Shown here piece after piece: positions 18,666-63,224 of a stretch of 64,000 bases of DNA. Every line of letters begins with the position of its first letter. The first letter of the stretch is position 1. Under the pieces are notes generated by a model. It was given only the letters and a program-made list of their open reading frames with translations. It was not told the DNA's origin and made no database searches. The stretch spans positions 6,560,001 through 6,624,000 of the forward strand of contig CP068257.2 in assembly GCA_009914755.4 (NCBI GenBank), in the 5' to 3' direction. The translations under genes and the position numbers were made by a program. The stretch is from the human T2T-CHM13v2.0 reference genome, Homo sapiens.

Positions 18666-18667
18666 GG

Positions 18668-20057: not shown

Positions 20058-20582
<525 letters not shown>

Positions 20583-29920: not shown

Positions 29921-30879
29921 TTGTATATACACGTCAGTTCAAGGGATAGAGGACACTGACTCTGAGCCCTGTTGACCCAAGCAGGCTCCCGTTGTGGTGG
30001 GTTGTCAACCCACAATATCACTCTTCCTGAGTCCCCATCGCCTCTGTGTTGTGGAGAAGTTAGAGACACACAGCAGTGTCTGTGAGTAGCTCTGCATGAA
30101 GGACCATTTTCTAGATGACAGACACATCTCAACACAGCTCACTGATCAGACTCAGGTGAGTGGGACCTGCTCTCCTCTCTTCCTCCTGGCTTGGGGACAG
30201 TCACTATCAGGTGGGTGGTTTTGGCCTCTGGGCAGCTACTGAGGGTAATCTCTGAACACTCACCGGGTGCCTGTTTTGTGCTGACAGTCGTCTCATTCAT
30301 CCTCACAGCAATTCCATTCTGCATTTTTCTCATCACCCCCCTGACCACCCAAGACAACCCCATCAGGGCCCTGTCACCAGGCCCAGTCCAGTTCCATGAT
30401 AACCAAGACACAGGTCCAGAGACAACCGTCCTGCATCGTGCCTGCATCTGATCCCCCTTGGTGGGTAGTGACCAGCACAACATGGAAGAAGCCAGGGCAG
30501 CATGCAGCTCTGCAGCCCCAGATGGCTCCTGGGCCTTGGGAAGTCATTCTTAAAAGGGAAGCTGGTCACTTTGAGGTCCCTGAAAGGAAGGGTAAACGTA
30601 CATCCCAAAAGCCCTGGCAGCCGGCAGCCAGCAGCCAGCAGCATGGCATACATCTTCTCACCCAACCTGTGTGACAGAGGCCCCCTCCTGGAACACAAGC
30701 CCCATACCTAAAGCATCCTGTCCCAGTCGGACCTCATCCTGAGCCCTGGGAGGGGAGGGGCACCATGGGTTCCCTGCAGCAGCCAGGATTACCACCCAGG
30801 GGACTCGGCCTTCTGTGGCCCTGGCCAGACTTAGAATTTGGCCCAAGACAAGCTTACTCGGAGCAACTTCTCAGTACCT

Positions 30880-31240
30880 GGGGCCTGTGCATGCCAGGTA
30901 AGGACAAGCTGGCTCAAAGAGCAACCAGCTACCTCTGCAAGGGTGTGCCAGGAGCAGGTGGAGCAGTCACCAACCTCACCCACTCAAGGAAACAGGGATG
31001 GCCAGGTTCCCACAGTCTGAATGACCACCACCTGACAGCTGATGGAGTGGAGGCCTGAGGAAAAGCAGATGGCACTGGGGTTCTACCTCCAGGGCAGAGT
31101 AACTGATTTACCCTGGCTGGCAGGGAGTGACGTTGGTGGCTGGTCTATTGGCTCCTGGCACACACTTGCAGAGGTGGCTGGTTGCTCTTTGAGCCAGCTT
31201 GGCTTTGCCTGGGATGCATAGGACTCAGTGCAACAAATGT
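30880..31240. repeat. Inverted repeat: ~75-bp arms (30880-30960 and 31160-31240) around a ~190-bp spacer
   Basis: ggcctgtgcatgccaggtaaggacaagctggctcaaagagcaaccagctacctctgcaagggtgtgccaggagc … gctcctggcacacacttgcagaggtggctggttgctctttgagccagcttggctttgcctgggatgcatagg are reverse complements. Confidence 0.85.
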
Positions 31241-31384
31241 GCTGCAAATGGAGCCACATAGAGGAAAGGAGCAGCAGGCTCAGGAGCGGGGTGTGTGCCA
31301 CCTTTGGGGCTCCAGTCCATGCATAGGGGCTTCTACAGCACTGTGGGCTTCTCAGGTGCCAAGAGGCAGAACACAGGCCATCTG

Positions 31385-31545
31385 GAGGATGACTCTGGTA
31401 AGAGCTTCCTTGGGTATGTGGATGATGTCCAGAATGTTGGCCTGGTGTCCCTGAGACAGCACTAACAGGTCCATGACTGGGTCCAGGTCCTGCCTGGGCT
31501 GATTGGCAAAGAGCTCATTGACAGTGTGGAATGCATCTATGGTGA
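31385..31545 (-). repeat. Inverted local duplication of 31880-32040 (part of the terminal-ORF-bearing segment)
   Basis: ctctggtaagagcttccttgggtatgtggatgatgtccagaatgttggcctggtgtccctgagacagcactaacaggtccatgactgggtccaggtcctgcctgggctgattggcaaagagctcattgacagtgtggaa is the reverse complement (≈90%) of …ttccacattgtcagtgagctctttgccaatcagtccaggcaggaccccgacccagccatgggcctgttagtgctgtctcagggacacaagaccaacatcttggacatcatccagatacacaaggaagctcttaccaaagtcatggag. Confidence 0.85.
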
Positions 31546-31867
31546 AGTGGATCTATGTTCAAGTGCAGAAAGGGCCCAATCTGGTAGATGAACCACACAA
31601 CCAGCGTCTGGGTGCAGGCACAGTGCCACATTTTTTGTCACTTCCTGATGTACCCCACCAGCACTGAAGAGACAGCCTGGAGACAGGGCAAGAGGAAGGC
31701 TGAGAAGGATGAGATGGTGAGTGCCAGATTCTTCCTGGCCCTGAGCCCTCCCTCAGAGTGACACTCAACCTTTAGGAGTGGGAGAGCAAGATTGACGGCT
31801 TCAAGTGCTTCACCAAGAAGATGGACAACAGGGCTCTCAGTTCAACTTCACAGCCAATGAGTGGTGA

Positions 31868-32128
31868 CAGGCTTTAAGAAAGAGCATCTTCCACATTGTC
31901 AGTGAGCTCTTTGCCAATCAGTCCAGGCAGGACCCCGACCCAGCCATGGGCCTGTTAGTGCTGTCTCAGGGACACAAGACCAACATCTTGGACATCATCC
32001 AGATACACAAGGAAGCTCTTACCAAAGTCATGGAGAGCAGGCAACATGTGGCAGAAGGGAATACAGAGGTGCAGAGGCTGATGATGTCAGAATCACAGGA
32101 ACAGGATTTCTTTGGCTACTTTGGCTGA
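31868..32128 (+). other. Conserved terminal open frame, copy 1 (86 codons then TGA); candidate last exon of an unidentified gene or pseudogene family
   Basis: [86 protein letters not shown]; the same frame is open in copy 2 (60239-60502) with ~75% amino-acid identity. Confidence 0.4.
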
Positions 32129-32589
32129 AATTCACCACTTCCATCCAATTCCAGTGAGAGACATGGACTCACAGATGCAGCATTTCTTGCAACAAGAGAT
32201 ACTACTTTTTCAAAAAGTCACTGAGGAATTGATAGTGTTGAATGACTCAATACTCAATCGTGGACTGTTTCCAGTTCAAGGATACTTTCTACAGCAGAAT
32301 AATAACACTAGCAAAGAGCTAGTACAAGGATGGTTTTGTGCTCAACTGAAATCCAGCTGAATACAGAATTGTATAGGAAACAGTTAATATGGTGATAGAA
32401 TAGAAACAGTAGCAAATGTGAACTAAATCATGCTATGAATGCCTAAACTACTGCTGTAACTTTTGGAAAAATGATAATACCACTTTATTGCTTTTTGAAG
32501 AATGAATATCTTAGTGTATATGCTCTAGACCTCAAACCCTATAAAGATTCTCAAAGAAGTTGGCTGGATAAAGCCTACTGTGGATGTCT

Positions 32590-33585
32590 TTATATTCAAA
32601 GATTGATGATGCAATTTGAATATGTGTCTCCTCCGAATCTCATGTTGAATTATATTTCCTAATGTGGAAGGTGGATCCTGGCATAACGTAATTGAATTAT
32701 GAAGGCAAATTTCTCATGAATGGTTCAGCACCATCCCCTTGTACCGTCCTCACAATAATGAGTGACTTCTCATGAGGTCTGGTCACTGAAAACTCTATGT
32801 CACCTCCCTACTCTCCGTGTTTTCCCCTTGCCATGTGAGACAACTAATTCTTTCTTTGCCTTCCATGATTATTGAAAGATATCTGAGGCCTCCTAGAAGC
32901 AGAAGCACTGTGCTTAGAACCATGAGACAATTAAACCTATTTTTCAAAATAAATCATACAGAAAATGGCAAATGAGGACTGGAACACTGCTATAAAGATA
33001 CCTGGAAATGTGGAAGCAGCTTTGGAACCCGGTAATGGACGGAGGTTGGAAGAGTTTGGAAGGCTCAAAAGAAGACAGATAGATGAGAAAACTTTTGGAC
33101 CATCTTAGATTCTGGCTCAATTGTTGTGACAAAAATCCTGACAGAAACATGGACAATGAAGACCAGACTGAGGAGGTCTCAGAGAGAAATAAGCTTTCTG
33201 GAAAATGTCTTTATTTTGGATATGGAAAGCTTACACAATGCCTGTACCATCATTGTACCTTAGAAGCAGTGAACTTGCTTTTTTCAGAGACTCATAGGCA
33301 AAAGAGACTGCAGCCTTGACCCAGATGAGATTTGGACTTTGTAACTTTGAGTTAATCCTGAAATGAGTTAAGACTTTGGGAGACTGCTGGCAAGGCATGA
33401 TTGTATTTTGATGTGAGAAGGACATGAGATTCATGGGGTCAGGGACAGAATAATACGGTTTTTCTCTATGTCCCAACCAAAATTCATATGGAATTATATT
33501 TTGTAATGTTAGAGGCGGGGCCTAGGTGGAAAAAGATTTAGTCATAAAATGGTGCAGGTAGATACTTCACGAATGATAAAGGACC
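32590..33585 (+). mobile_element. THE1/MST-type (ERVL-MaLR) element with a large internal deletion (LTR + ~600 bp of internal sequence)
   Basis: LTR-like 32590-32975 (…atctcatgttgaattatatttcctaatgtggaaggtggatcctgg… ccatgagacaattaaacctatttttcaaaataaatcatacag), then internal-region start cactgctataaagatacctggaaatgtggaagcagctttggaacccggtaatggacggaggttggaagagtttggaagg… recalled as THE1/MST-int 5' end. A paralogous copy is at 60990-62050. Confidence 0.6.
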
Positions 33586-36500
33586 ATCACCTTGATGCTA
33601 TCCTCCTGATAGTGAGTGACTTCTCATGAGATCTGGTTGTTTAACAGGCTGTGGAACCTCTTTCCTCACTCTGTCTTCCTCCTACTCCTGCTTTAGGAGA
33701 CATCTCATTGTCCCTTGGCTTTCTGATATAACGAGGAGTCTTCCTGATTCCTCCCAGAAACAGAAGACACAATGATTCCTTCACAGCTTGCAGAAACATG
33801 AGTCAATTACATGTCTTTTATTTACAATAATACAGAAAATTAGAACTGCAGAGAGGAGCTGTGAAGTGTCTTCAAGGCCTTTTTCCCTTTGTCTTGGCTA
33901 TTAGCACAGGGCTTCTTTATATGCAAATTTCTGAAATCTTCTTGAATGTTTCCCCTTAAATGGGATTTTTGTTATTGCTACCTAGCCAACCTGCTATACA
34001 GATAGCTAAAAAAGTAGAAGCAGGCTCAATAGTGGGTAGCAAACAAAGATTGGAAGGGCTTGGAGGGATTAGAGTACTAGAGGGAGTGGGAGGGAGTGAT
34101 TTAATCATGGATGGGTGGGGGTGTATGTGGAAGGGAAAAAGGGGTGGGTAGGGTGGGAGGGAGTAGACTGGCTGTATGGTGGTGGGAAGGTGGTGGGTAG
34201 TAGGAAGGGGGAGTAGCCTGCTGCAGAGGCAGAGCCTCATGGAAAATGCCTACTGGGGAAGTGCACCTGTGGCTTTGCAGGTCTGAGCCCCCATGGCTGC
34301 TCTCATAGATTGGACTAGTGTTGAGTGCCTGTAGCTTTTCCACACGGAGGGTGCAAGCTGTTGGTGGGTCTATGTATCTGGGGTCTGGAGGGTGGTAGCA
34401 TGGGGGCTCCAAGTCCATATTTTCCTTCTGCACTGCCCTAGTAGAGGTTTCCCAAGAACTCTTCGTCTGCAGGAGGCTACTGCATGGAAACAGTAGGAGG
34501 TGGGTGTGGGAGGCAGATCCTTCACCAATGGTTAGGCAACGTCTTCTTGATGCTGTCCTCATGATAGTGTGTTCTCATGAGATCTGGTTATATAACGGGG
34601 TGGCAACTCTTTCCTCTCGCAGTCTTGCTTCTACTCCTGCCATTTGAAATATCTCATTGCCCCTTGGCCTTCTGGTATGATTGGGAGGCTTCCTGATCTG
34701 ATCCTCCCAGAAGCAGAAGCCACTAAGCTTCCTTTACAGCCTGCTGTATAGTGAGCCAATTAAACCTCTTTTCTTTATGATCATACAGAAAATCAGTGCT
34801 ATGAAGTGGAGCCATGAAATGCCTTCAAGGCCCTTTCCCCTTTGTCTTGGCAACCAGCACTCAGCTTCTTTTCATGCAAATATCTGAAGCCTTCGTGAAT
34901 TTTCCCCCGAAAATGGACTTTTCTGTTTTACCACATTGCCAGGCTCTGATAAAGATAGCTGACAATGTAGAACCAGGTTCAGAAGTGAGTAAAAGACAGA
35001 GGTCAGAAGAATTGGGAAAGCTTAGAAGACAGCAAGATGAGGAAAATATTGGACCACTATAGAGAATTGTTAAATACTTGTGATTAGAAGGCTGACAAAA
35101 GTTTAAACACTGAAGTCCAGACTTAAAAGGTCTCAGATGAAAATGAGGAATTTCCTATTAATAGAAGCCAAGATTACATTTGATTGGCCTTAGCAAAGAA
35201 GCTGGCTGCACGGGGACCCTGCCCTGGAGATCTGTGAAACTAGGAACTTAGGGGTGATGATTTAGGATGTATTTGGTGAAATGAACATCTAGGCAGCATA
35301 ACACAAGAGGTGACCTGTCCGCATTGAACAGCCTGTGTTCTTAAGGGTGACCTAAGAAATGACTTCAAGTTGGAACTTCAAGTGGAGATCTAAAGTTTGG
35401 AAAATTTGGAGCCTGGCCAAGTGGTCAAAAAGAAAAGCCGATTTTGAGGGGGAAATTTCAAGAAGGCTTAGGGTATTTGCATAAAAAGGAACCCAGTGCA
35501 AATAGCCAAGACAGTTTGAAACCGGCCTTGAAGGTATTTTAGAGAAGTCTGCAGCAGCCCTTGCTGTCACAGGCCCCTTGGCCTAGGAGAGAAGAATGGT
35601 TTCCTACGCCAGTCCCATGGCCCTGCTGCTGTGTTCAACCGCAGGACACTGCTGCCTGCATCTGTGCAGCTCCAGCACCAGCCATGGCTGAAAGACATAC
35701 AGGTACAGCTCGGGTCATTGCTTCAGAGGTGGCTCAAAGTCTTGAAGGTTTCCATATAGTGTTAAGCCAGTAGGTGCACAGAGAAAGAGACTAGAGGCTT
35801 GGGAGCTCCCGTCTAGACTCCAGAAGATGTACAGAAAATCCTGGATGTTCAGGAAGAAGCTTTTCCAAGAGGCAGAGCCTTATGGGGAACCTCTACTAGG
35901 GGAGCAAAGAAGGGACATATAAGGTTGAAGCCCCCACACAGGGAGGCATCACTCTCTAAACCCCAGATTCATAGACCCACAAACAGCTTGCACCCCTGGT
36001 GTGGAAAAGCTATGGGCACTCAACAACAGCCCTGTCCATGAGAGACAGCCACTGAGGCTGAACGCTGTAAAACCACAGGGGCAGATCTGCCCAAGGCCTT
36101 GGGAGCTCAGCCCTCACAGCCCTGTGCCATGGATATGGGACAAGGATTCAAAAATGATGATTTTGGAGCTGTAGCATTGAGTGACTGGCCTGCTGGGTTT
36201 TGGACATTTATGTATCCTATGAGTCCCTTCTGGGTTTTGTGCTTCTTTCTAGGAATTATTTTTTTCTGTTGGCTGGGAATGCTTACCCATTGCCTGTACA
36301 ATCCTTGTACCTTGGAAGTAGTAAATTTTCTTTATAATTCAGTGACTTATGGGCATAAGGGACTGTAAACTTGTCTCAGATAAGACTCTGGGCTTTGGGC
36401 CTTTGAGTAAATGCTGGAATGAGTTAAGATTTGAGAGACTCTAGGGAAGGCATCATTGCATTTTGCAATGTGAGAAAGACATGAACTTTGGGGGACCAGG

Positions 36501-39500
36501 GACAGAATAATATGTTTTGGCTCTCTCTCTCTACCAAAGCTCATGTGGAATATTAATGGGAAATGTTAAAAGTGGGGGCTGGTGGAAGGTGATTTCATCA
36601 TGGTGAAGAGTGGAGGTTGGATGGTTGGGGGGCGGGGAGGGTTGGAGGGATTGGGGGGCGAGGAGGGTTGGAGGGGATTGGGGGTTGGGAGGGTTGGAGG
36701 GGATTGTGGTGGGGTTGGGGATGAAAGGCAGGGGTGGGGGTTGATCCTTCACAAATGGTTAAACACCATCTCCTTAATGCTGTCCTTCTGATAGTGAGTT
36801 CTCTTCATGATTTTGGAGCTGTGAGATTGAATGAACACTGACCTACTGTATTTTGGATGTCCACTGGGCCTGTGGTCCCATTAGTGTTATTTTTCTTGGA
36901 AATTTCTTTCCTTTGGATTGAGAAAGCTTACCCAGTACCTGTACCATCATTGTACCTTGAAAGAAACAAACACCCTTTTAACTTCAGGGAATCATAGGCA
37001 GAAGAAACTGTAGCGTTGTCTCAGATGAGACTTTGAACTTTTTACATTTGAGTTAATGCAGGAAGGAGTTAAGGCTTTTGGAAACTTTTGAAAAGGTATG
37101 AATGTATTTTATTCTGTGAGAAGGATATGAGATTTGGGGGGTCAAGGTCAGCATAATATGATTTGGCTGTGTGCCCCTGGAAAAACTCATGTGGAATTGT
37201 AATGCCAAATGTTGGAAGCAGGACCAGGTGGGAGATTATTTAATCATGGATGGGAGGGGTAGGGGTGGAAAAAAATGGGGTGGGTAGGGTGGGGAAGAGT
37301 AGGCTGGCTGTAGGGTGGTGGGAGGGTGGTGGGTAGTAGGAAGGGGGAGTAGACTGCTGCAGAGGCAGAGGCTCATGGAAACCTCTACCAGGGCAGTGTG
37401 CCTGTGGCTTTGCAGGCTTTAGCTCCCATGGCTTCTCTCATGGGCTGGGCTGGTGTTGAGTGCCTATCACTTTTCCATACTGAGGGTGTGAACTGTTGGT
37501 AGGTCTATGAATCTGGGGTCTAGAGGATGGTGGCCTCCTGCATAGTCACTCAAAGCCCTTATTTTCCTTCCGCACTGCCATAGTACAGGATTCCCAAGAG
37601 CCTCTGCCTCTGCAGCAGGCTTCTGTCTGGAACACTAGGAGGTGGAGCTGTGTTGGGGGGCGGATCCTTCACCAATGGTTAAGCACCATCTTCTTGATGC
37701 TGACCTAGTGATAGTGAGTCCTCATGAGATCTGGTTATATAACGGTGTGGCACTTCTTTCCTCTCTCAGCCTTGCTCTTACTCCTGCCGTATGAAACATT
37801 TCATTGCTGTTTTCCTACTGGTATGATTGGGAGGCTTCCTGAGTCCTCCCAGAAGCAGAAGCCACTATGCTTTCTTTACAGCCTGCAGAACCATGAGCCA
37901 ATTAAACCCCTTTTCATTATGATCATACAGAAAATAAAGTACTGTGAAGTGGAGCTATGAAATATCTGCAATGACATTTCCCCATCGTCTTGGCTATTAG
38001 CACTGGACTTCTTTTTAATGCAAATATCTGAAGCCTTTTGAAGTTTCCCCCTGAAAATGGACTTCTTTTTCTTCTACATTGCCAGGCTGCAATAAAGATA
38101 GCTGAAAATGTAAAGCAGGTTCAGAAGTGGGTAACAGCCAGAGGTTGGAGAGTTTGGAGAGCTTGAAAGAAGACAGGAAGATGAAAGAAATTTTGGACCA
38201 TAGTAGGCACTTGTTGAATAGTTGTGATTAAAAGGCTGGCAGAAGGATGGACAGTGAAGGCCAGGCTTACAAGGTCTCAGATGAAAATGAGGAAATTACT
38301 GGGAACAGGAGCCAAGGTTACTTTTGTTTTGCTATAGCAAAGAACATGGCTGCAGGGCGACCTTGCCCTCGAGATCTGTGAAACTTTGAACTTGAGGGTG
38401 ATGATTTAGTACATATCTGGTGGAATGAACTTCTAGGCAGCATAGCACAAGGGGGATCCTGTCTGCATCAAACAGCCTGTGCTGTTGTGTGACCGAGGTT
38501 ATGTGTGACCGAGGAAATGACCTCAAGTTGGAACTTATATTTAAAAATGACAAGCAGAGCTCAAAAGTTTGGAACATTTGCAGCCTGGCCAAGTGGTCAA
38601 AAAGAAAAGCTGATTTTCAGGGGGAAAATTCATGAAGGCTCCAGAAATTTGCATAAAATGGAGGCCAGTGCTAATAGCCAAGACAATGGGGGAAAAAGCC
38701 TTGGAGGCATTTCAGAGATGTTTACAGCAGCATTTACTGTCACAGACCCTGGGGCCTCGGAGAGAATGGTTTCCGGGGCCAGCCCCATGGCCCTGCTGCT
38801 GTGTGCAGCCTCAGGACACTGCTGCCTGCATCCCAGCAGCCCAGCTCCTGCTCCGACCTTGGCTGAAAGATACACAGCTACAGATTGCATCACTGCTTCA
38901 GAGGGTACAAGCTATAAGGCTTCATGGCTTCCACATAGTGTTAAGCCAGCGAGTCCATAGAGCACTAGCCCAGAGGCTTCGGAGCCCTCATATAGATTTT
39001 GGAAGATGTACGAAAATGCTTGGGTGTCCAGACAGAAGGCTGCCAAAAAGCAGAGCCTCTTGGGAAACCTCTACTAGGGCAGTGCAGAAGGAAAATATGG
39101 GGTTGGAGCCCCCACACCGGAGGCCACCATCATGCAGACCCCAGACTCATAGACCCACCAAGAGTTTTGTACCCTCTGTGGGTGAAAACTACAGGCACTC
39201 AACACCAGCACAGCCCATGAGGGCAGCTGTGGGGACTGAAAACTGCAAAGCCACAGGTGCAGACCTGCCCAAGGCCTTGGGAGCCCAGCCCTCATGCCCT
39301 TGTGCCCTGGATGTGGGGCAAGGATTAAAAAAGGATGACTTTGGAGCTGTAGGTTTTAATAACTGGCCTGCTGGGTTTTGGATTTTCATGGGATCTGTAA
39401 GTCCCATTTGTGTTTCATTGCTTCTCTGGCAAAAATCTTCCTTTAGGATGGGAATTCTTACTCAATGCCTGGACAATCATACCTTGGAAGTAGTTAACTT

Positions 39501-42500
39501 GCTTTGTATTTCAGAGGCTCAGGAGCAGAACGGACAGCATCTTTGTCTCAGATGAGACTTTGGGCTTCAGACATTTAAGTAAATGCTGGAATGAGTTAAG
39601 ACGTTGGGGGTTTTAGCCAAGACGATGGGGAAAAGTCATTAAAGGCGTTTCATAGCTTCACTTCACAGTACTAATTTTCTGTATGATCATAACAAAAAGG
39701 GGTTTAATTGGCTCATCGTTCTGCAGGCTGTAAAAAAAAAGCATAGTGGCTTGGGGAATGGTAAGTAAGGCATCACTGTATTTTGCAAAGTGAGAAGGAC
39801 ATGAGATTTGGGGAGGCAGGGACAGAAGAATAAGATTCGGCTGTGTGTCCCTATGGAAACTCATGTGGAATTGTAATCAGAAATGTTAAAATTGGGGCCA
39901 GGTGGAAGGTGATTTAATCATGGAGGGCACTGGGTGTTGGAAGGTGGAGATTGGGGAGGATGGGTGGATTATGCTGGGGGTGAGGGGTGAAAAGTGGGGG
40001 TGGGGGGATGATCCCTCACAAGTAGTTAAACACCATCTCCTTAATCCTTTCCTCATGATGGTGAGTTCTCGTGACGGTTTTGGAGCTGTGTGATTGAATG
40101 GATACTGACCTCCTGGGTTTTGGACTTGCGTTGGCCCTGTGATCACATTTGTGTTATTTTCCTGGCAAACTTCTACCCTTTGGATTGAGAAAACTTACCC
40201 AATGCCTGTACCATCATTGTACCTTGAAAGAAAAGAACTCACTTTTAAATTCAGGGACTTATAGGCAAAAGGGACTGTAGCCTTTTCTCAGGTGAGACGT
40301 GGAACTTTTTACATTCGAGTTAATGCTGAAATGACTTAAGACTTTTGGCAACTTTTGAAAAGGCATGATTGTATTTTACTCTGTGAGAAGGATATGATAT
40401 TTGGGGGATCAGGGTCAGAATAGTATGATTTAGCTGCGTGTCCCTACCTAAACTCACATGTAATTGTAATCCTGAATGTTGCAGGTGGGGCCTGGTGGGA
40501 AGTGACTTATTCATGGATGGGAGAGGGGTGGAGTTGGAAGTAAAAACAGGTGGGTAAGGTGGGGAGACGTAGGCTGGCTGTAGGGTGGTGTGTAGCAGGA
40601 GGGGAGTAGCCTGCCACAGAGGCAGAGGCTCATGGAAAACCTCTACTAAGGCAGTGCACCTGTGGCTTTGCAGGGTTTAGCACCTGCAGCTGCCCTCATG
40701 GGCTGGGCTGCTGTTGAGTGCCTGAAGCTTTTCCATACTGGGGGTGTGAGCTGTTGGTAGGTCCATGACTCTTGGGCTGTAGGATGGTGGCGTGGGGGCT
40801 CCAAGCCCATATTTTCCTTTTGCACTGCCCTAGTAGAGGTTTTCCAGGCGGATCTGTCTCTGTCTCAGGCTTTTGCTTGGAAACAGTGGGTAGTGGATAT
40901 GGGGTGGTGGGCGGATCCTTCACCAACAGTTAAGCACCATCTTGATGCTGACCTTCTGATAGTGAGCTCTCATGAGATCTAGTTGTATAACTGGATATTG
41001 CACTTCTTTCCTCTCTCTGTCTTGCTTCTACTCCTGCCATATGAAACATTTCATTGCTGCTTGGCCTTCTGGTATAATTGGGAGGCTTCCTGAGTCCCCC
41101 TACAAGCAGAAACCACTATGCTTTCTTTACAGCGTGAAGAACTGTGAGTCAATTAGACCTCTTTTCTTTATGTAGATACAGAAAATTAATGCTGTGAAGT
41201 GAAGTTATGAAATGACTTCTAGGTGTTTCCCCCATTCTCTTGGCTATTAGCGCTGAGCTTCTTTCAATGCAAATATTGGAGGCCATCTTGATGTTTCCCC
41301 TGATAATGGACTTTCCTTCTTTTACCACATTACCAGGCTGCAGCAAAGATAGCTGACAGTGTAGACGCAGGTTCCAAATTGGGTAGTGGCCAGAGGTTAG
41401 AGAGTTTGGAGAGCTTGGAAGAAGACAGGAAGATGAGGGAAATTTTGCACCATTGCAGAGACTTATTAAATAGTTGTGAGTAAAAGGCTGACAGAAGGAT
41501 GGACAGTGAAGACCAGCCTTGTAAGGTCTCAGATGAAAATGAGGAACTTACTGGGAAAAGGAGCCAAGGTTTTTTTGTTTTGACTTAGCAAAATAATTGG
41601 CTACACAGTGACCCTTCCCGGGAGATCTGTGAAACTGAACTCGAGGGTGATAATTTAGGGTGTATTTGGTGGAATGAACTTCTAAGCAGCAAAGTTCAAG
41701 AGTTGTACTGCCTACATCGAACAGCCTGTGCTCCTATGTGTGATGAAAGAAATGACCATAAGTTGGAACTTATATTTAAATGAGAAACATAGCTTCAACA
41801 TTTGGAAAATTTGTAATCTGGACAAGTGGTCAAAAAGAAAAGCTGATTTTCAGGGGGAAAATCAAGAAGGTTTAGGATATTTGCATAAAAAGGAGCCCAA
41901 TGCTAATAATTCAAGACAATGGGAAAAAGGCCTTGAAGGCATTTCAGAGACCTTTGTAGCAGTCCTTGCTGTCACTGGCCCTGGGGTTTAGGAGAAAAGA
42001 ATAGTTTCCTGGCTCAGCCCCATGGCTCCACTGCTGAGTGCAGCCTCAGGACACTACTGCCTGCATCCCTGCAGCTCCTTTTACAGCTTCAGCCATGGAT
42101 GAAAGATGTACAGGTACAGCTTGCAACACTGCTTCAGAGGATGCAAGCTCCAAGCCTTGGTGGCTTCTACATAGTGTTAAGCCAGCAGGTGCATAAAGCA
42201 CAGGACTAGAAGCTTCAGAGCCTTCGTCTGGACTCCAGAGAATATATCAGAAAGCCTGAGTGTCTAGCCAGAAGCTTTTCCAAGAGGCAGAGCCTCATGG
42301 TAAACCTCTACTCAGGTAGTAAACAAGGAAAGTATAGGGTTGGAGACCCCATAGAGGGAGGCACCATTTTCCAGACCTCGGTTTCATAGACCCACCAGCT
42401 GCTTGCACCCTTAGTGTTGAAAAGCTACAGGTATTCAACGCCAGCCTAGCCAATGAAGTCAGCTGTAGGGGGAAGAGTCTGCAATGCCACATGTGCAGAG

Positions 42501-45500
42501 CTGCCCAAGGCCTTGGGATCCCAGCCATCGCACCACCCTGTGCTCTGGATGTGGACATAGATTCCAAAAAGATGATTTGGAGCTGTATGATGGAATGACT
42601 GGCCTGCTGTGTTTTTGACTTGCAGGTGGTTTTTAAGTCTCATCTGTGTTTTGTGCTTCTTTCTGGCAAGTTTCTTCTTTTTGGCTTGGAATGCTTACCC
42701 AATGCCTGTACAATCATTGTACCTTGGAAGTGGTTAACTTGCTTTGTATTTCAGAGGCTCAGGGCAGAAGGTATGGCAGCCTTGTCTCAGAAGAGACTTT
42801 GGGCTTTAGACATTTGAGTAAACGCTGGGATGAGTTAAGATTTGGGGGACTCTAGGGAAGGCATCATTGCGTTTTGCAATGTGAGAAAGACATGAACTTT
42901 GGGGGACCAGGGACAGAATAATATGTTTTGGCTCTGTGTCTCTACCAAAACTCATATGGAATTTTAATGGGAAATGTTAAAGGTGGGGGCTGGTGGAAGG
43001 TGATTTAATCATGATGGAGAGTGGAGGTGGGATGGTTGGGGGGGTGGGGAGGGTGGGGGTGATTAGGGGGTGGGGAGGGTTGGGGTGATTGTGGTGGGGT
43101 TGGGGGTGAAAGGCAGGGGCGGGGGGTGCATCCTTCACAAATGGACATTTGAGTAAATGCTGGAATGAGTTCAGACACTGGGGGACTGTAGAGGATGCAT
43201 CATTGTATTTTGCAGTATGAGAAGGATGTGAGATTGGGGAGCCAAAGGGAGAATAAAATGATTTGGCTCTATGTCCCTACCAAAACTCATGTTGAATTGT
43301 AATGGGGAATGTTAAACGTGGGGCTTGGTAGAAGATGATTTAATCATGGTAGAGAATGGGGGTTGGAAGGGGGATGTAGGAGAACGGAGGTTCATGGTGT
43401 GAGTGAAGGTGAAACATGGTGACGGGTGACAGATCCTTCACAAATGGTTAAATACTATCTCCTTAATGCAGTCTGTGTGATAGTGAGTTCTCATGATAAA
43501 TGAATGCTGTCCTGCTGGGTTTTGGAGTCGGATTGGGCCTGTGTCCCATTTGTGTTATTTTTCTGGGAAAATCTTCCCTTTGGTTTGAGAAAGCTTACCC
43601 AGTGCCTGTGCCATCGTTTTAACTTGAAAGAAAAGAATTGCATTTTACATTCAGGGACTTATAGGCAGAAGGGATTGGTCTTGTTCTGGATGAGACTTGA
43701 ACTTACTACATTTGAGTTACTGCTGGAATGAGTTAAGACTTTTTGAAACTTTTGAAAAGGCATGTTTGTATTTTTCTGTGTGAGAAAGACTTGAGATGTG
43801 GGGGTGTCAGGGTCAGGATAATATGGTTCGGCTGTGTTTCTCTACAAAAACTCATGGGGAACAGCATTCCTGACTGTTGTAGGTGGGACCTGGTGGGAGG
43901 TGATTTAATCACAAACAGGAGGTTGGTAGGGGTGAAAGGGAAAATAAATGGGTAGGGTGGGGAGGAGTAGGCTGGCAGTAGGGTGGTGAGAGGGTGGTGG
44001 GCAGTAGGAAGGGGGAGTAGCCTGCTGCAGAGGCAGATCCTCATGGAAAACCTCTACCAGGGCTGTGCACCTGTGGTTTGCAGGGTGTAGCCGCCGTGGC
44101 TGCCCTCATAGGCTGGGCTGGTGTTGAGTGCCTGTAGCTTTTCCATACTGAGATTGCAAGCTGTTGGTGGGTCTATGAATCTGGGGTCTGAGGATGGTAA
44201 CCTCATGCGTGGGGCCTCCAAGCCCATCTATTTTTTCTGCTCTGCCCTAGTAGAGGTTTTCCTAGTGGCTCTGCCTCTGCCTCAGGCTTCTGCCTGGAAA
44301 CAGTGAGGGGTGTGGGTGGTAGGGGGCAGATCTTTCACCAATGGTTAAGCAATATCTTGATACTGACCTTGTGATAGTGAGTTCTCAGGAAATCTGGTTG
44401 TATAACAGGGTTATACAACGTGTGGCACCTTTTTCCTCTCTCTGTTTTTTTTTCTACTTCTGCCATATAAAACATCCCATTGCTGCTTGGTCTTCTGGTA
44501 TGATTGGGAGGCTTCCTGAATCTTCCCAGAAGCAGAAGCCTCTATGATTTATTTAGAGCTTGCAGAAACATCAGCCAGTTTAACCTCTTTTCTTTCTGAT
44601 TATACAAAAAAATAATGCTATAAAGTGGAACTATGAAATGCCTTCAAGACCTTTTTCCTAGTCTCTTGGCAATCAGCACTCAGCTTCTTTTCAGGCAAAT
44701 ATTTGAAGCCTGCATTAATTTTTTCCTGAAATGGACTTTTCTTCTTTTACCACATTGCCAGGCTATGACAAACGTAGCTGAAAATGTAGAAGCAGGTTGA
44801 GAAGTGTGTAATGGCCAGAGGTTGGAGAGTTTGGAGGTCTTGGAAGAAGACAGGAAGATGAGGAAAACTTTGGTCCAGTGTAGAGACTTGTTAAATAGTT
44901 ATAATTAAAAAAGTGACAGAAGGATGGACAGTGATCACCAGGCTTAGAAGGTCTCACATGAAAATGAGGAGCTTGCTGGGAACAGGAACCAAGGTCACTT
45001 TTGTTTTTTCCTTAGCAAAGAACATTGCTGCATGATGCCCCTAATGTGGAGACCTGTGAAAATTTGAACATCAAGGTGATAATTAAGAGTGTATTTGGTG
45101 GAATGAAATTTTAGGCAGCAAAGCTTAAGAGGTGTCCTGTCTGTGTCGAACAGCCTGTGGTCCTATATGTGACCAAATAAATGACCTCAAGGTGAAACTT
45201 ATATTTAAATGAGAAGGAGAGCTTAAAAGTTTGGAAAATTTGCAGACTGGCCTAGTGGTCAAAAAGAAAAGCTGATTATCAGTGGGAAAGTTCAAAAAGG
45301 CTTCAGAAATGTGCATAAAAAGGAATTCAGTGCTAATAGCCAATACAATGTTAAAAAGGCCTTGAAGGCATTTCAGAGACTTTTGCAGCAGCCCTTGCTA
45401 TCACAGGCCCTGAGGCCTGGGATAAAAGAATGGTTTCCTTCTCCAGCCCAATGGCCCCGCTGCTATGTCCATCCTCAGGACACTGCTGACTGCATTCCTG

Positions 45501-47520
45501 AAGCTCCAGCTCCAGCCATGGCTGAAAGATGCACAGGTACAGCTTGGGTCACTGCTTCAGAGGGTGCAAGCTGCAAGCCTTGGTGGCTTCCACATAGTGT
45601 TAAGCCAGCAGGTGCACAGAGCACAAAACTAGAGGCTGGGGATCCTTTGTCTGGACTCCAGAGTATGTATGGAAAAACCTGGGTGTCCAGGTCGAAACTT
45701 TTCCAAGAGGCAGAGCCTCCTTTACTAGGTCAGTAGAGAAGGAACATATAAGGTTGGAACCCCATACAGGGAGGCACCATTCTGCCAACTCCAGATTCAT
45801 AGACTCACTAGCAGCTTGCACCCTGATTGTGGAAAAGCTATAGGTACTCAACACCAGCCCAGCCCATGAGGGCAACTGTGGAGGTTAGACCCCGCAAAAG
45901 TCACAGGTGCAGACCTGCCCAAGACCTTGGGAGCCCAGGCCTCATACCCTTGTGCTCTGGATGTGGGATCTGGATTCAAAAAAAATGATTTGGAGGTGTA
46001 GGATTCAATGACTGGCCTGTTGGGTTTTTGACTTGTATGGGGTCTGTAAGTCCCAAATATATTTTGTGCTTCTTTCTGGCAAATTTGTTCCTTTTGGCTG
46101 GGAATACTTATCCAATGCATGTAAAATCATTGTACTTTGGAAGTACTTGCTTGGTATTTCAGAGGCTCAGGGGTAGAACATATGGCAGCCTTGTCTCAGA
46201 AGAGACTTTGGGCTTTGGACACTTCAGTAAATGCTGGAATGAGTTAAGAGATTGGGAAACTGTAGAGAAGGCATCATTGTACTTTGCAGTGTGAGAACAA
46301 CATGAAATATGGGGACCAGGGTCAGAATAATATGATTTGGCTCTGCATCCCTAACAAACTCATGTGGAATTGTAATGGGGAATGTTGAAGGTGGGGCCTG
46401 GTGGGAGGTGATTTAATCATTGAGAAGCATGGGGGTTGGAGGTAAGGGTGTGGAGAGAATGGGGGAGATTATTTTGTGGGTGGGAGTGAAAGATGAGGGT
46501 GGGGGTCAGATCCTTCACAAATGGTTAAGCACACTCTCCTTAATGCTGTTCACATGACAGTGAGTTCTCTTGATGATTTTGGAGCTGTGAGATTGAGTGA
46601 ATACTGTCCTGCTGGGTTTTGGACTTGCATTTGTGTTATTTTTCTGGGCAACTTCTTCCCTTTGGATTGAGAAACCTTACCCAATACCTGTTCTACCTTG
46701 AAGGAAAAGAAATCCCTTTTAAATTCAGGGACTCATTGGCAGAAGGGACTGTAACCTTGTCTCAGATGAGATTTTGAAATTTTTACATTCGGAATGAGTT
46801 AAGACTTTTGGAAACTTTTGAAAAGGCATGATTGTGTTTTGCTCTGTGAGAAGGACATGAGGTTCTGGGGAATCAGGGTCAGAATAATATGAGTTGGCTG
46901 TGTGTCCCTATAAAACTCACGTGTCATCCTTAATGTTGGAGGTGGGCCAGGTGGGAGGTGACTTAATCTTGGATGGGAGGGGGTTGGGGTGGAAGGAAAA
47001 GGAGGGATAGTGTGGGGAGGAGTAGGTTGTCAGTAGGGTGGTGGGAAGGTGAGAGTAACCTGCTGCAGAGGCAGAGGCTCATGGGAAACCTCTACTAGGA
47101 GAGTGCACCTGTGGCTTTGCAGGGTGTAGCCCCCATGGCTGATCTCATGGGCTGGGTTGGTGTTGAGTGCCTGTAGCTTTTCCATACTGAGTGTGTGAGC
47201 TGTTGGTGGGCTTATTAATCTGGAGTCTGGAGGATCGTGGCCTCTTGTGTGGGGGCTCAAAGCCTATATTTTCCTTCTCTGCTGCCATAGTGGAAGTTTC
47301 ATAAGAGGTTCTGCCTCTGCAGGAGGCTTCTGCCTGGAAGCAGTGGACAGTGGTGTGGTTGGAGAATCCTTCACCATTGGTTAGTCTTCTTGATGCTGAT
47401 CTCCTGATAGTGAGTTCTCATGTGATCTGGTTGTCTAACAGGATGTCACACCTCTTTCCCCTCTCTGTCTTGCTCCTACTCCTGCCATATGAAACATCTC
47501 ATTGCCTCTTGGTCTTCTGA
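33585..47520 (+). repeat. Tandem macrosatellite: 4 complete + 2 partial copies of a ~3.0-3.4-kb composite unit derived from a rearranged THE1/MST-type MaLR element
   Basis: Landmark gatccttcaccaatggttaagcaccatcttcttgatgctgacct recurs at 34527, 37665, 40913, 44325, 47365 (periods 3138, 3248, 3412, 3040). A second landmark gatccttcacaaatggttaaacaccatctccttaatgctgtcc lies ~900 bp upstream of each (33585, 36748, 40010, 43425, 46505). Units share THE1-like LTR start (atatgatttggctgtgtgcccc…ctcatgtggaattgtaat) and ~1.7-kb internal region. Confidence 0.85.
38632..39555 (+). other. 307-codon ORF inside the MaLR internal region of unit 2 (retroelement-derived; not a host gene)
   Basis: ORF track entry 38632..39555; homologous positions in other units are interrupted (e.g. 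35561..35773, 36099..36368, 45311..45736), consistent with a decaying element ORF. Confidence 0.5.
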
Positions 47521-47544
47521 TATGGTTAGGAGGGGCCTGATCAG

Positions 47545-48335
47545 TGTGGGCCTGCTCAGTGGACCTAGTCAGTTGCGACTTGTCAGTGAGGCCTATTTAG
47601 TGGGGGGTGGTCAGCAGGGGTCTGCTTAGAGCGGGTCTCATTAGAGGGATCTAGTAGTGCATGTCTTGGTGAGTGGGTTGATAGTGGTAGACAAATGTTT
47701 GGTGTCTGGTCAGTGCCAATCTGGGCTGTGGGACTTGTTCAGTGGAGACCTTGGGACCGAGTCAGCAGAGACGCTTGTCAGTGGGGCCCTGGTCAGGGCA
47801 GGCTGGTCCGTGGAACTTAATCAGTGGGGGCCTGGTCAGAGAGGACTTGATCATTGGTGGCTTTTGTAGCACTGGTCTACGGGGTGACCTGGTCAGCGGG
47901 GATCTGAGCAGTGTGTGCCTGTTCAGTGGGGCGTAGTCATTAGGGTCCCAGTCAGGGGCATCTTGTCACCTCAGTCCTGGTTAGCAGGGGCCTGGTCACT
48001 GGCTGCCTATTCCCTGCAGGCCTGGTCAGTGGGGCTTCGTCTGTGGGACCAGACAATGAGGTCATGATCGGTGGAACCTGATCAGTGAGGCCTTGTCAGT
48101 AAGGACCTCGTCAGTGAGGCCTTGCCAGTGAGGCCTTGCCAGTGAGGCCTTGTCAGTAAGGTCTTCGTCAGTGGAGTCCTGGTCATTGTGGGCCTGGCAG
48201 CGGGAATCTAGTTAGTGAGGCCTGGTGATGGGGCTCTAATCAGTGAGGGTGTGGTCAGGGAGGAAGTGATATGCTGGATCTGGTCACCAGGGACCTGGTC
48301 AGTGGGGGCTGCTGAGTACTGCTGGGAGATGTCAG
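47545..48335. repeat. Minisatellite M2 (same ~15-bp CCTGGTCAGTGG-type unit as M1 and M3), arising inside a MaLR LTR
   Basis: …ctgatatggttaggaggggcctgatcagtgtgggcctgctcagtggacctagtcagttgcgacttgtcagtgaggcctatttagtgg… through …ggcctggtgatggggctctaatcagtgagggtgtggtcaggg. Confidence 0.85.
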
Positions 48336-48539
48336 GGGAAATGCATGTTATTGAGGAGCCTGTGGACAGCTGGGGTGGCCCAGTGGTGTTCAATGGCCCA
48401 GTCAAAAGTGGACAAAGCAGGTGTTTGGATGGACCTGGGAGATCTTGCTCAGAGATTCTGACAGGACAAAGGTAAAGGAAAGGCCAGAGTGGTCGGAGAG
48501 ATAGTCACAGTCTATGGTCTGCACAGGATGGACGAGGCC

Positions 48540-48830
48540 AGGGAACAGGCAGGGTGGGCAGCTTGGTTTCAGGGAGAGGCAGGTGCATGCTGGGAGGTCA
48601 GACCCTATGAGGGTTGTGGGGGCGTCAGGTGGTGTGGGCTCCAGGTGCACCCTCAGCGCACTGGGCAGGTCTTGGCCCAGGCTCCCTGGACCTTGGCCGG
48701 GTGATGTGGTCACTTGCTGGGAGACTGTTGTCAGGTGCTGGCCACCCACCCTGGGTAGCACTGTCCCATCTCAGGACTGGACTTCCTCAGATACTGTAGA
48801 GGGCACAGCCTCCAGCCCAGGAGGGGCAGC
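48540..48830 (+). repeat. Left arm of a ~300-bp-arm inverted repeat (right arm 49215-49500, spacer ~370 bp)
   Basis: cagggaacaggcagggtgggcagcttggtttcagggagaggcaggtgcatgctgggaggtcagaccctatgagggttgtgggggcgtcagg… is the reverse complement (~90%) of …cctgatgcccccacagccctcacaggtcctgacctcccagcatgcacctgcctctccctgaattccagctgtccaccctgcctgttccc. Confidence 0.85.
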
Positions 48831-60800: not shown

Positions 60801-60989
60801 AAACAGTAACAAATGAACTAAATCATACTATGAATGCCTACACTACCATTATAACTTTTTGAAGAATGATAATACCACTTACTTTATTGCCTTTTGAAGT
60901 AGGAATATTTTAGTGGATATCCTATAGACCTGAAACCCTATAAAGAATCCCAAAGAAGCTGGCTGGATAAAGCCTGCTATGGATGTCTT

Positions 60990-62050: not shown

Positions 62051-62159
62051 AGATCTAGTAGTTTAAAAGGCTGTGGAACCTCTTTCCTCTCTCTGTCTTG
62101 TTCCAACTTCTGCCATATGAAACATGTCATTGCCCCTTGGATTTCCGGTGTGGTTAGGA

Positions 62160-63060: not shown

Positions 63061-63224
63061 GCTGAGCACTGCTTGGATAAGCCAGGTGCAATGTGCATTA
63101 TTGAAGGCCCTGTGGACAGCTGGGATAGCCCAGTGATGCCCAAGGGCCTAGTCAGAAGTGGACAAAGCACTTATTTGGATGGACCTGGGAGATCCTGCTC
63201 AGAGATTCTGACAGGACAAAGGTA

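What the first reader, a model, noticed from the sequence alone, without database searches (positions are those of the whole stretch)
33585..47520. Macrosatellite built from a rearranged THE1/MST-type MaLR element: ≥4 tandem ~3.2-kb units
Units are phased by recurring landmarks (34527, 37665, 40913, 44325, 47365). Each unit contains:
- a ~1.7-kb THE1/MST-like internal region;
- an LTR-like segment interrupted by a G-rich 21-bp subrepeat, (gggagggttggaggggattgg)n-like, e.g. 36600-36740, 39930-40015, 43010-43135, 46430-46500;
- a duplicated internal 3'-end fragment;
- a ~190-bp internal fragment inserted in inverted orientation, e.g. 37370-37560 is the reverse complement of 39105-39260.
This is not a simple LTR-int-LTR-int concatemer: the rearranged composite itself is the amplified unit, so amplification post-dates the rearrangement. 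Units are ~85-90% similar to each other by eye, so the array is not very young or is evolving fast. Deleted mini-versions of the same element sit at both ends of the duplicated modules (32590-33585, 60990-62050).
Basis: partly seen in the sequence, partly recalled or inferred. Interest (0 to 1): 0.65.

Follow-up and report, generated by a model that had tools for sequence, protein, structure and literature searches.

The report
Known MaLR "LTR array" megasatellite copy
This is a real tandem array of four and a bit ~3.2-kb units built from scrambled pieces of an ancient retrotransposon (THE1/MST, MaLR class) in a primate genome, but it belongs to the "LTR array" megasatellite family already described in human pericentromeric duplications in 2008, and it shows no sign of coding or other function.

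Summary
Window 33.6-47.5 kb carries four full tandem units (3136, 3257, 3411 and 3038 bp), a truncated leader and a partial fifth unit. Each unit is the same rearranged MaLR composite: two partial LTRs, two G-rich blocks, a 1.7-kb internal region, a second internal 3'-end piece and an inverted ~230-bp internal fragment. Three details are off. Units are 79-81% identical, not 85-90%. The G-rich subrepeat has a 26-bp period and is tandem at only some sites. One inverted insert (39614-39752) is private to unit 2.

The structure is not new. Warburton et al. 2008 (PMC2588610) described "LTR arrays": ~3.5-kb monomers made only of MSTA/THE1 LTR and MSTA-int fragments in both orientations, in 25 arrays within pericentromeric segmental duplications, including 4-unit ~14.7-kb arrays. 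Both of their FISH primers hit once per unit here, some exactly. 59 contaminant contigs from metagenomes carry the same family. Most group with one specific monomer at a mean of about 92-97% identity, against ~82% for the next monomer, so the array spread as a block after its monomers had diverged. I found no coding constraint. A paralogue of the flanks 28 kb downstream lacks the array, most likely through LTR-LTR recombination. Verdict: already known, low interest.

The parts
32607..33545 (+). Mini MaLR element in flank module A: a complete, unexpanded 5' LTR (~32607-32966), an internally deleted int (32987-33380) and the 5' part of the next LTR (33392-33545).
   Evidence: 91.5% identical over its 3' part to the paralogous mini-element at 61609-61967.
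33558..34088 (+). Truncated leader unit (U0): LTR mid-to-3' part plus the first ~220 bp of int, then a jump into the LTR-a G-rich tail of unit 1.
   Evidence: 37663-38159 matches 33561-34065 at 76%, and 37227 onward matches 34089 onward.
34209..37344 (+). Unit U1 (3136 bp), phased on the published primer-2B site.
37345..40601 (+). Unit U2 (3257 bp). In order: G-rich tail and primer site, (+) int fragment 37348-37398, inverted int fragment 37401-37631, LTR mid-3' 37656-37935, int 37935-39608, private inverted insert 39614-39752, LTR-b 5' part 39767-39927, G-rich 39927-40005, LTR-mid fragment 40009-40074, second int 3' end 40079-40348, LTR-a 5' part 40360-40520, G-rich 40521-40601.
40602..44012 (+). 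Unit U3 (3411 bp). It carries an extra ~290-bp partial int-3'/LTR-5' duplication at ~43142-43430.
44013..47050 (+). Unit U4 (3038 bp).
47051..47533 (+). Partial fifth unit (U5p), cut inside the LTR-mid block where flank B begins. It is a distinct monomer type.
   Evidence: Four external contigs carry the same type at 89-96%.
37401..37631 (-). Inverted internal fragment (reverse complement of int 39027-39257). Homologous copies lie at 34266-34457, 40659-40881, 44070-44298 and 47108-47338. It is part of the composite that was amplified.
   Evidence: inverted copies 80-84% identical to each other.
39614..39752 (-). 140-bp inverted copy of the LTR 3' end plus int 5' start (37859-37996, 89%). Present only in monomer type U2, so it arose after amplification but before dispersal.
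   Evidence: absent from the other units. (7 external U2-type contigs span it at 95.5-98.6%).
36611..36706 (+). G-rich block with 26-bp tandem subrepeats (63% G), expanded at the 'CATGGGGG' site of LTR-b. Equivalent blocks lie at 39930-40015, 43010-43135 and 46430-46500. A second series in LTR-a lies at 34110-34208, 37250-37344, 40521-40601, 43912-44012 and 46994-47050.
   Evidence: 7 of the window's 11 + strand G4 motifs lie in these blocks.
30778..32606 (+). Left flank module A, duplicated at 57247-61005.
   Evidence: A/A' K2P 0.124.
47534..48645 (+). Right flank module B, duplicated at 62146-63395. External contigs share it out to ~51.3 kb.
   Evidence: L062 95%, L075 94%, L011 97%. B/B' K2P 0.151.
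61006..62145 (+). Array-less paralogue: mini-element' (61006-61967) followed by a single hybrid LTR-mid segment (61976-62145) that reads like the array's left edge and then like its right edge. It then runs straight into B'.
   Evidence: three-way alignment: the left-to-right switch falls near 62089.

Best explanation
This is one copy of the primate 'LTR array' megasatellite family of Warburton et al. 2008. It is a non-coding tandem array whose ~3.2-kb monomer is a scrambled composite of MaLR (MSTA/THE1-type) LTR and internal sequences.

The most likely history has four steps.
(1) MaLR LTR-int-LTR(-int) DNA at one locus was rearranged. The changes were a deletion running from mid-LTR to near the end of a neighbouring internal region, a foldback-type inverted duplication of ~230 bp of internal sequence into an LTR, and expansion of the LTR's G-run into G-rich blocks.
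(2) The resulting composite was amplified in tandem to at least 5 monomers, by unequal exchange or replication slippage.
(3) The monomers then diverged without homogenisation to ~20% and lost their CpGs. Monomer-specific markers arose, such as the 140-bp inverted insert of U2.
(4) The whole block with its flanks was copied to other loci by segmental duplication. In one nearby paralogue (57-63.4 kb) the array was most likely deleted by recombination between its first and last LTR segments.

Today it is inert repeat DNA that acts only as a recombination substrate. Shown here: the anatomy, family membership, the relative order of events and the lack of coding constraint. Inferred: the molecular mechanisms of rearrangement and amplification, absolute ages, and the direction of the array-less paralogue (deletion rather than ancestral state).
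For: FAMILY. The published description matches: ~3.5-kb monomers made entirely of MSTA and THE1 LTR fragments and MSTA-int in both orientations, 25 arrays, and 4-unit arrays of 14.4-14.8 kb. Here the contiguous MaLR block 32607-47533 is 14.9 kb. Published primer 2B hits the + strand at 34209, 37345, 40602, 44013 and 47051 with 0-2 mismatches. Primer 1A hits the - strand at 35690, 38865, 42101 and 45524 with 0-3 mismatches. That splits each unit into ~1.5 and ~1.7 kb, close to the two ~1.7-kb products the paper describes. Chance expectation is 0.00-0.01.

MaLR IDENTITY. LTR blocks align to recalled THE1B and MSTA consensus sequences at z = 9-27.

ORDER OF EVENTS.
- Sub-blocks cluster by type across units.
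- Units are equally distant from each other, K2P 0.22-0.24.
- Flank paralogues are younger, K2P 0.12-0.15.
- 48 of 56 external 1-kb segments from metagenome contigs assign to one monomer type (U1 3, U2 15, U3 14, U4 12, U5p 4). Mean identity per type is 92.5-96.7%, against ~82-84% to the next-best of the four full monomers.
- L014 is colinear with U2-U3-U4 at ~95% over 8.7 kb.
- The U2 private insert is shared by 7 external U2-type contigs.

NON-CODING.
- No Pfam hits.
- Equal divergence at codon positions, 0.212/0.218/0.206, and 4-9 stops in the other units.
- The 307-codon frame of U2 is broken at codon 43 in all 4 external U2-type copies.
- CpG o/e is 0.07-0.17.

SEGMENTAL-DUPLICATION CONTEXT.
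- Flanks are duplicated inside the window and in external contigs.
- A mir-3118 copy lies in the flank. That family was expanded by segmental duplication (PMC3059204).
- An ANKRD18/26-like exon upstream has many paralogues at 73-99%.

COLLAPSE. The array-less paralogue switches from left-edge-like to right-edge-like within the shared LTR segment. Its mini-element carries the same internal deletion as the mini-element beside the array, so neither could have seeded full-length units.
Against: - I could not run RepeatMasker/Dfam, so the THE1 versus MSTA labels rest on the paper and on consensus sequences recalled from memory.
- I could not map the window to a chromosome. No external contig exceeds 98.5% identity to any unit, and the best contig for the upstream exon region is 92% identical. 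The window may be an unsampled paralogue or a non-human primate.
- Monomers here are 3.0-3.4 kb, against the '~3.5 kb' quoted.
- The crossover in the array-less paralogue rests on about 16 informative sites in 100 bp of ~14%-diverged sequence, which is suggestive only.
- One 200-column window of U1 vs U3 reaches 94% identity, and the direct int segment of U2 (39027-39257) is closer to the inverted copies than to the other direct copies. Some local gene conversion probably occurred, which blurs the simple 'no homogenisation' picture.
Confidence: 0.9

Rival explanations
1. An independent MaLR-derived macrosatellite that only resembles the published LTR arrays, having formed by a convergent rearrangement at a different locus.
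For: Monomer length is 3.0-3.4 kb rather than ~3.5 kb. No external contig is more than 98.5% identical. The chromosomal position is unknown.
Against: Both published family-specific primers match once per unit, some exactly, in the right orientation and with spacing close to that described. 59 external contigs share the same junctions and monomer types, with per-type mean identity of about 92-97%. The block size equals that of the published 4-unit arrays.
Confidence: 0.03
2. A gene-bearing macrosatellite of the D4Z4/DUX4 or TAF11-like kind, in which each unit encodes a protein from the MaLR internal ORF. The candidate is the 307-codon frame at 38632-39555.
For: One unit (U2) has a 307-codon open frame and U4 has a 141-codon one. 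Warburton et al. call the internal parts 'internal open reading frames'.
Against: No Pfam match. The other units have 4-9 stops and frameshifts, and divergence is equal at all codon positions. All four external U2-type copies are frameshifted with a stop at codon 43, and variable sites split 26/25/24 by codon position. The DNA is CpG-depleted and has no CpG island.
Confidence: 0.03
3. Not a tandem duplication at all, but a cluster of independent, nested THE1/MST insertions that happen to lie side by side.
For: MaLR elements are abundant and do cluster. Units are only ~80% identical, similar to unrelated copies of one subfamily.
Against: All units share the same non-canonical junctions in the same order: a truncated LTR-b joined to an internal 3' end, and the inverted fragment at the same LTR position. 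They are colinear over 2.4-3.4 kb. Independent insertions would not reproduce these breakpoints.
Confidence: 0.01
4. The array-less paralogue (A'-mini'-B') is the ancestral state, and the array was built or inserted later between A and B.
For: An 'empty site' with a single LTR is what a pre-amplification locus might look like. The crossover evidence is thin.
Against: The units diverged earlier (K2P 0.22-0.24) than A/A' and B/B' (0.12-0.15). The mini-element next to the array lacks ~1.1 kb of internal sequence that every unit has, so it cannot be their source. The array's last unit is cut at the same LTR position where B' joins in the paralogue.
Confidence: 0.1

Closest known systems
MaLR 'LTR arrays' megasatellite family (Warburton et al. 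2008, BMC Genomics 9:533, PMC2588610)
   Same: The monomer is composed only of MaLR LTR and internal fragments in both orientations. The period is about 3.2-3.5 kb. Both published conserved primer sites occur once per monomer. The block size matches the 4-unit, ~14.7-kb arrays. It is embedded in duplicated flanks. The monomers are diverged and of distinct types, like those that build the 6-monomer higher-order repeats on chromosomes 13, 18 and 21.
   Different: This copy is short (4 full units) and shows no higher-order periodicity within the window. No unit contains an extra insertion of the size of a full LTR6A. The exact chromosomal copy and the species could not be identified.
Ordinary THE1/MST (ERVL-MaLR) proviral elements and LTR-int-LTR-int concatemers
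   Same: The building blocks are the same: an LTR of ~380 bp starting TG..ATATGRTTTGG and ending ..ATACA, a G-rich polypurine-like tract before the LTR, and a ~1.7-kb non-coding internal region. The mini-element at 32607-33930 is still a plain LTR-int(deleted)-LTR.
   Different: The repeating unit is not LTR+int (~2.1 kb). It is a 3.2-kb rearranged composite with two partial LTRs, an inverted internal fragment and expanded G-rich blocks.
D4Z4 (3.3 kb) and TAF11-like/MSR5p (3.4 kb) macrosatellites
   Same: Similar unit length, with tandem organisation in duplicated subtelomeric or pericentromeric DNA.
   Different: Those units are GC-rich or CpG-island-like, or carry a conserved ORF (DUX4, TAF11L), and are highly homogenised (more than 95% identity). 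Here GC is 46%, CpG o/e is ~0.1, units are ~80% identical and there is no conserved ORF.

Membership tests
MaLR 'LTR array' megasatellite (Warburton 2008) | The monomer consists entirely of MaLR (MSTA/THE1) LTR fragments and MSTA-int fragments, in both orientations. | tested here: met
   Unit dissection: two partial LTRs, a full and a partial internal region, and an inverted internal fragment, with no non-MaLR segment left over apart from G-rich expansions inside the LTRs. LTR blocks align to recalled THE1B and MSTA consensus at z = 9-27. The subfamily labels rest on memory and on the paper, not on RepeatMasker.
MaLR 'LTR array' megasatellite (Warburton 2008) | Tandem monomers of ~3.5 kb. | tested here: met
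   Offsets are 3074-3427 bp and units are 3038-3411 bp, slightly shorter than quoted. The whole MaLR block is 14.9 kb for '4 units', matching the 14.4-14.8-kb 4-unit arrays of Table 3.
MaLR 'LTR array' megasatellite (Warburton 2008) | Carries the family's conserved sequences, namely the published FISH/PCR primer sites that split the monomer into two ~1.7-kb products. | tested here: met
   Primer 2B: 5 sites on the + strand with 0-2 mismatches. Primer 1A: 4 sites on the - strand with 0-3 mismatches. There is one of each per unit, 1.5 and 1.7 kb apart, and 0.00-0.01 matches are expected by chance.
MaLR 'LTR array' megasatellite (Warburton 2008) | Multi-locus family embedded in (pericentromeric) segmental duplications. 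| tested here: inconclusive
   Multi-locus family and duplicated flanks are met: 59 external contigs carry the same monomer types and flanks, the flanks are duplicated in the window, and a mir-3118 copy and an ANKRD18/26-like paralogue lie nearby. Pericentromeric location could not be tested, because no primate genome assembly is available in these tools.
MaLR 'LTR array' megasatellite (Warburton 2008), large-array subtype on chr13/18/21 | Higher-order repeat of 6 monomers marked by a full-length LTR6A insertion. | tested here: not met
   Only ~5 monomers are present, all ~20% apart, with no higher-order periodicity in the window. No unit carries an additional foreign insertion. So this is a small-array member and not the 13/18/21 HOR subtype. 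This feature does not define the family as a whole.
D4Z4-type / TAF11-like gene-bearing macrosatellites | A conserved ORF (double homeobox, TAF11-like) in each unit, with a GC-rich, CpG-island character. | tested here: not met
   No Pfam domains in the unit ORFs tested. ORFs are not conserved between units or paralogues. GC is 45-47% and CpG o/e is 0.07-0.17.

The most novel reading that the evidence does not exclude
This short array may preserve the ancestral ordered set of about 5 diverged monomers (U1-U5) from which the 6-monomer higher-order repeats of chromosomes 13, 18 and 21 were later built. It may also be a copy, or a non-human primate orthologue, that is not in the 2008 catalogue. 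The conservation of monomer types and order across loci (about 92-97% within a type, ~82% between types) has not, to my knowledge, been reported for the small arrays. A further, weaker possibility is that the strand-biased G-rich, G4-prone blocks give the arrays a structural or chromatin role.
Probability: 0.15. Interest if true: 0.3.

Novelty: already known. Interest (0 to 1): 0.15.

Why it matters
It matters little beyond correct annotation. The useful points are practical.

- This block should be labelled as a MaLR 'LTR array' copy within a segmental duplication, not flagged as new.
- Its monomers are old and type-specific, so they can serve as markers for tracing the duplication history of pericentromeric and acrocentric duplicons.
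- The neighbouring array-less paralogue illustrates how such arrays can be lost by LTR-LTR recombination.

I found no evidence of coding, RNA or regulatory function.

Tried and rejected
- DUX4 binding. MaLR LTRs are known DUX4 targets, but the canonical motif TAAYBBAATCA is absent from the array. The homologous site has decayed to TGATTTAATCA (7 copies). Idea dropped.
- Coding potential of the internal ORFs. No Pfam hits, no codon-position bias and no conservation. Rejected.
- Structured RNA. Rfam at gathering threshold finds nothing in the array. The only hit in the window is mir-3118, in the flank.
- Literature searches. 'THE1 + macrosatellite', 'composite element/T2T-CHM13/THE1' and a raw LTR sequence string gave nothing useful. 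'MaLR + megasatellite' and 'LTR arrays/MSTA' returned only Warburton 2008 as relevant.
- Naming the locus through the upstream ANKRD-like exon. The only named hit is ANKRD18B from Pongo at 77%. The near-identical clusters carry no names. The contig behind the 99% protein hit is only 92% identical at DNA level. So the chromosome and species could not be fixed.
- The genome-contig scan with the primer pattern returned 6 bacterial contigs with no similarity to the window. These are chance matches.
- Plain BLASTN of recalled THE1B and MSTA consensus sequences against the window gave only 28-47-bp hits. Unit consensus sequences and Smith-Waterman alignment were needed.
Full report
OBSERVATION. The window is primate DNA: at least 15 Alu copies lie in its first 26 kb. 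Self-comparison shows long colinear + strand matches at offsets of 3138, 3267, 3427 and 3074 bp between 34089 and 47533. A ~3.2-kb tandem periodicity is therefore real. Phased on a conserved 21-mer, the array has four full units: U1 34209-37344, U2 37345-40601, U3 40602-44012 and U4 44013-47050 (3136, 3257, 3411 and 3038 bp). A truncated leader (33558-34088) precedes them and a partial fifth unit (47051-47533) follows.

ANATOMY. In unit-2 coordinates the unit reads as follows:
- 36740-36803: a 64-bp LTR-mid fragment.
- 36807-37081: a second copy of the internal 3' end.
- 37093-37253: an LTR 5' part.
- 37253-37345: a G-rich block.
- 37348-37398: a short direct internal fragment.
- 37401-37631: a 231-bp inverted internal fragment, the reverse complement of 39027-39257 (79%).
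- 37656-37935: the LTR mid-to-3' part.
- 37935-39608: a 1.67-kb internal region.
- 39767-39927: another LTR 5' part.
- 39927-40005: a second G-rich block.

So each unit holds two partial LTRs ('a' and 'b'), one full and one partial internal region, and an inverted piece. It is not an LTR+int concatemer.

The inverted fragment is present in all five units. A further 140-bp inverted insert at 39614-39752 (89% to 37859-37996) is present only in U2. The G-rich blocks are 51-63% G. Only the blocks at 36.6 kb, 43.0 kb and 43.95 kb show a tandem substructure, with a 26-bp period. The mini-elements (32607-33545 and 61006-61967) begin with complete LTRs that have no G-rich expansion, so that expansion is a derived feature of the array composite.

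DIVERGENCE. All six unit pairs are 79.4-81.1% identical (K2P 0.22-0.24), essentially a star. CpG observed/expected is 0.07-0.17. This is what long-term germline methylation and great age would produce.

WHAT IT IS. Consensus sequences of the LTR blocks align to THE1B and MSTA consensus sequences that I recalled from memory, at 72-83% identity and z = 9-27 over shuffles. The LTR start sits directly after a G-rich polypurine-like tract. This supports a MaLR origin, but the references are recalled, not retrieved.

The decisive evidence is the literature. Warburton et al. 2008 (PMC2588610) describe one 'unique megasatellite family' made entirely of MaLR elements. Its ~3.5-kb monomers contain fragments of MSTA and THE1 LTRs and MSTA-int in both orientations. 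They form 25 'LTR arrays' on 9 chromosomes within interrelated segmental duplications, and these include 4-unit arrays of 14.4-14.8 kb at 1q12 and 4p11. The paper prints its FISH-probe primers, which I searched for in the window:
- Primer 2B (GGGAGTAGCCTGCTGCAGAGG) matches the + strand at 34209, 37345, 40602, 44013 and 47051 with 0, 1, 2, 0 and 2 mismatches.
- Primer 1A (CTGTACCTGTGCATCTTTC) matches the - strand at 35690, 38865, 42101 and 45524 with 3, 2, 1 and 0 mismatches.
- 0.00-0.01 matches are expected by chance.
- The sites split each unit into ~1.5- and ~1.7-kb halves, close to the two ~1.7-kb products the paper describes.

The contiguous MaLR block here (32607-47533) is 14.9 kb. This is a member of that family.

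ORDER OF EVENTS. Paralogous sub-blocks cluster by type across units:
- Internal-3'/LTR-5' copies of type a are 83% alike and those of type b are 82% alike, but a versus b is 73%.
- Inverted fragments are 82% alike, but 75% to the direct copies.

The a and b copies were already roughly 12% apart at that time. That fits either an older LTR-int-LTR-int stage or two related MaLR copies.

The flank modules are duplicated inside the window: A 30778-33557 with A' 57247-61975, and B 47534-48645 with B' 62146-63395. Their K2P of 0.124 and 0.151 makes them younger than the unit amplification.

DISPERSAL. I scanned metagenome contigs, which contain human contaminant DNA, with the primer-site pattern:
- The scan returned 78 contigs, and 59 of them match the window.
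- Several carry two or three sites 3.1-3.4 kb apart.
- 48 of 56 homologous 1-kb segments assign to one monomer type: U1 3, U2 15, U3 14, U4 12 and U5p 4. Mean identity per type is 92.5-96.7%, against ~82-84% to the next-best of the four full monomers.
- Long contigs keep the monomer order. L014 is colinear with U2-U3-U4 at ~95% over 8.7 kb, and L053, L025 and L028 behave likewise.
- The U2-private inverted insert is present in 7 external U2-type contigs.
- External contigs share flank B.

Hence the monomer types predate the spread of the array, and the array travelled as a block with its flanks. This is the same logic as the 6-monomer higher-order repeats that Warburton et al. report for chromosomes 13, 18 and 21. 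Eight external segments fall outside the five types. They may be further monomer types or rearranged copies.

THE ARRAY-LESS PARALOGUE. In A'-B' the mini-element is followed by a single LTR-mid segment (61976-62145). It resembles the array's left edge up to about 62089 and its right edge afterwards, and then runs into B'. Three points favour loss of the array over ancestral absence:
- The units are older than the A/A' split.
- Both mini-elements share the same ~1.1-kb internal deletion and so cannot be the source of full-length units.
- The junction with B lies at the same LTR position in both copies.

Loss by recombination between the first and last LTR segments is therefore the most parsimonious reading. 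The crossover itself rests on few sites, and I give the opposite polarity about 10%.

FUNCTION. I found no evidence for any.
- The longest frame (307 codons, 38632-39555, in U2) has no Pfam match.
- The other units carry 4-9 stops and frameshifts in that frame.
- Divergence is the same at all three codon positions, 0.212/0.218/0.206.
- All four external U2-type copies are frameshifted with a stop at codon 43, and variable sites split 26/25/24 by codon position.
- Rfam finds nothing in the array.
- The canonical DUX4 motif of MaLR LTRs is absent.

Seven of the window's eleven + strand G-quadruplex motifs fall in the G-rich blocks. That is a property worth noting but not evidence of a role.

CONTEXT AND LIMITS.
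- An exon at 20154-20441 belongs to the ANKRD26-like family. Its closest named hit is ANKRD18B from Pongo at 77%, and many unnamed paralogues reach 73-99%.
- A mir-3118 copy lies at 53262-53336. That primate-specific family was expanded by segmental duplication (PMC3059204).

Both fit the duplicon setting described for LTR arrays. I could not place the window on a chromosome or fix the species. No external unit exceeds 98.5% identity, and the contig behind the 99% exon hit is 92% identical at DNA level. RepeatMasker/Dfam and primate assemblies are not available in these tools.

VERDICT. The structure is a copy of an already published megasatellite family, so interest is low.

Noticed in passing
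window 53262-53336 (-): Full-length match to the mir-3118 microRNA precursor family (Rfam RF04140, 90.7 bits against a gathering score of 89). It lies in the flank between the array and its array-less paralogue. The family is primate-specific, repeat-derived and expanded by segmental duplication (PMC3059204).
   Followed up: partly
window 14994-17596 (+) and 17703-18668 (inverted): A ~3.6-kb minisatellite with a 76-bp period (152-bp dimer), ~70% matches and about 29 copies. It is followed directly by about 13 copies of the same repeat in inverted orientation, which makes a large imperfect palindrome. I did not identify the family.
   Followed up: no
window 20154-20441 (+): A coiled-coil exon of an ANKRD26-like gene or pseudogene. 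The closest named protein is ANKRD18B from Pongo (77%), and there is a weak CCDC144C Pfam match. Dozens of paralogous copies at 73-99% occur in human-contaminated metagenome contigs. The contig encoding the 99% hit is only 92% identical in the surrounding DNA, so the exon is better conserved than its introns.
   Followed up: partly
window 57247-59844: A ~0.6-kb segment that is single-copy in flank A (30778-31383) is repeated in tandem about 3.5 times in the paralogue A', with a period of ~730-816 bp and 79-86% identity.
   Followed up: no
window 63404-64000 (runs off the end): A 48-bp minisatellite with at least 12 copies and 79% matches. Shorter 14/15/29-bp 'TCAGTGAGGCCTTG' minisatellites occur in both B modules (48082-48185 and 62817-62983).
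   Followed up: no
window 39027-39257 (unit 2): The direct internal segment of U2 is closer to the inverted copies of all units (77-84%) than to the direct copies of U1, U3 and U4 (73-74%). This suggests a gene-conversion tract between inverted and direct copies in this monomer type. Similarly, one 200-column window of U1 vs U3 reaches 94% identity.
   Followed up: partly
loci L039, L041, L002, L078 (metagenome contigs): Some external contigs of the same family join monomer types in a different order (L078: a U1-type monomer followed by one only ~88-90% like any window monomer; L002: a U4/U5-type segment running into U2-type). Others join them in opposite orientation (L041 has two primer sites on opposite strands; L039 joins U2/U3 on the minus strand to U4 on the plus strand). 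These are either real rearranged arrays at other loci or metagenome assembly chimeras.
   Followed up: no
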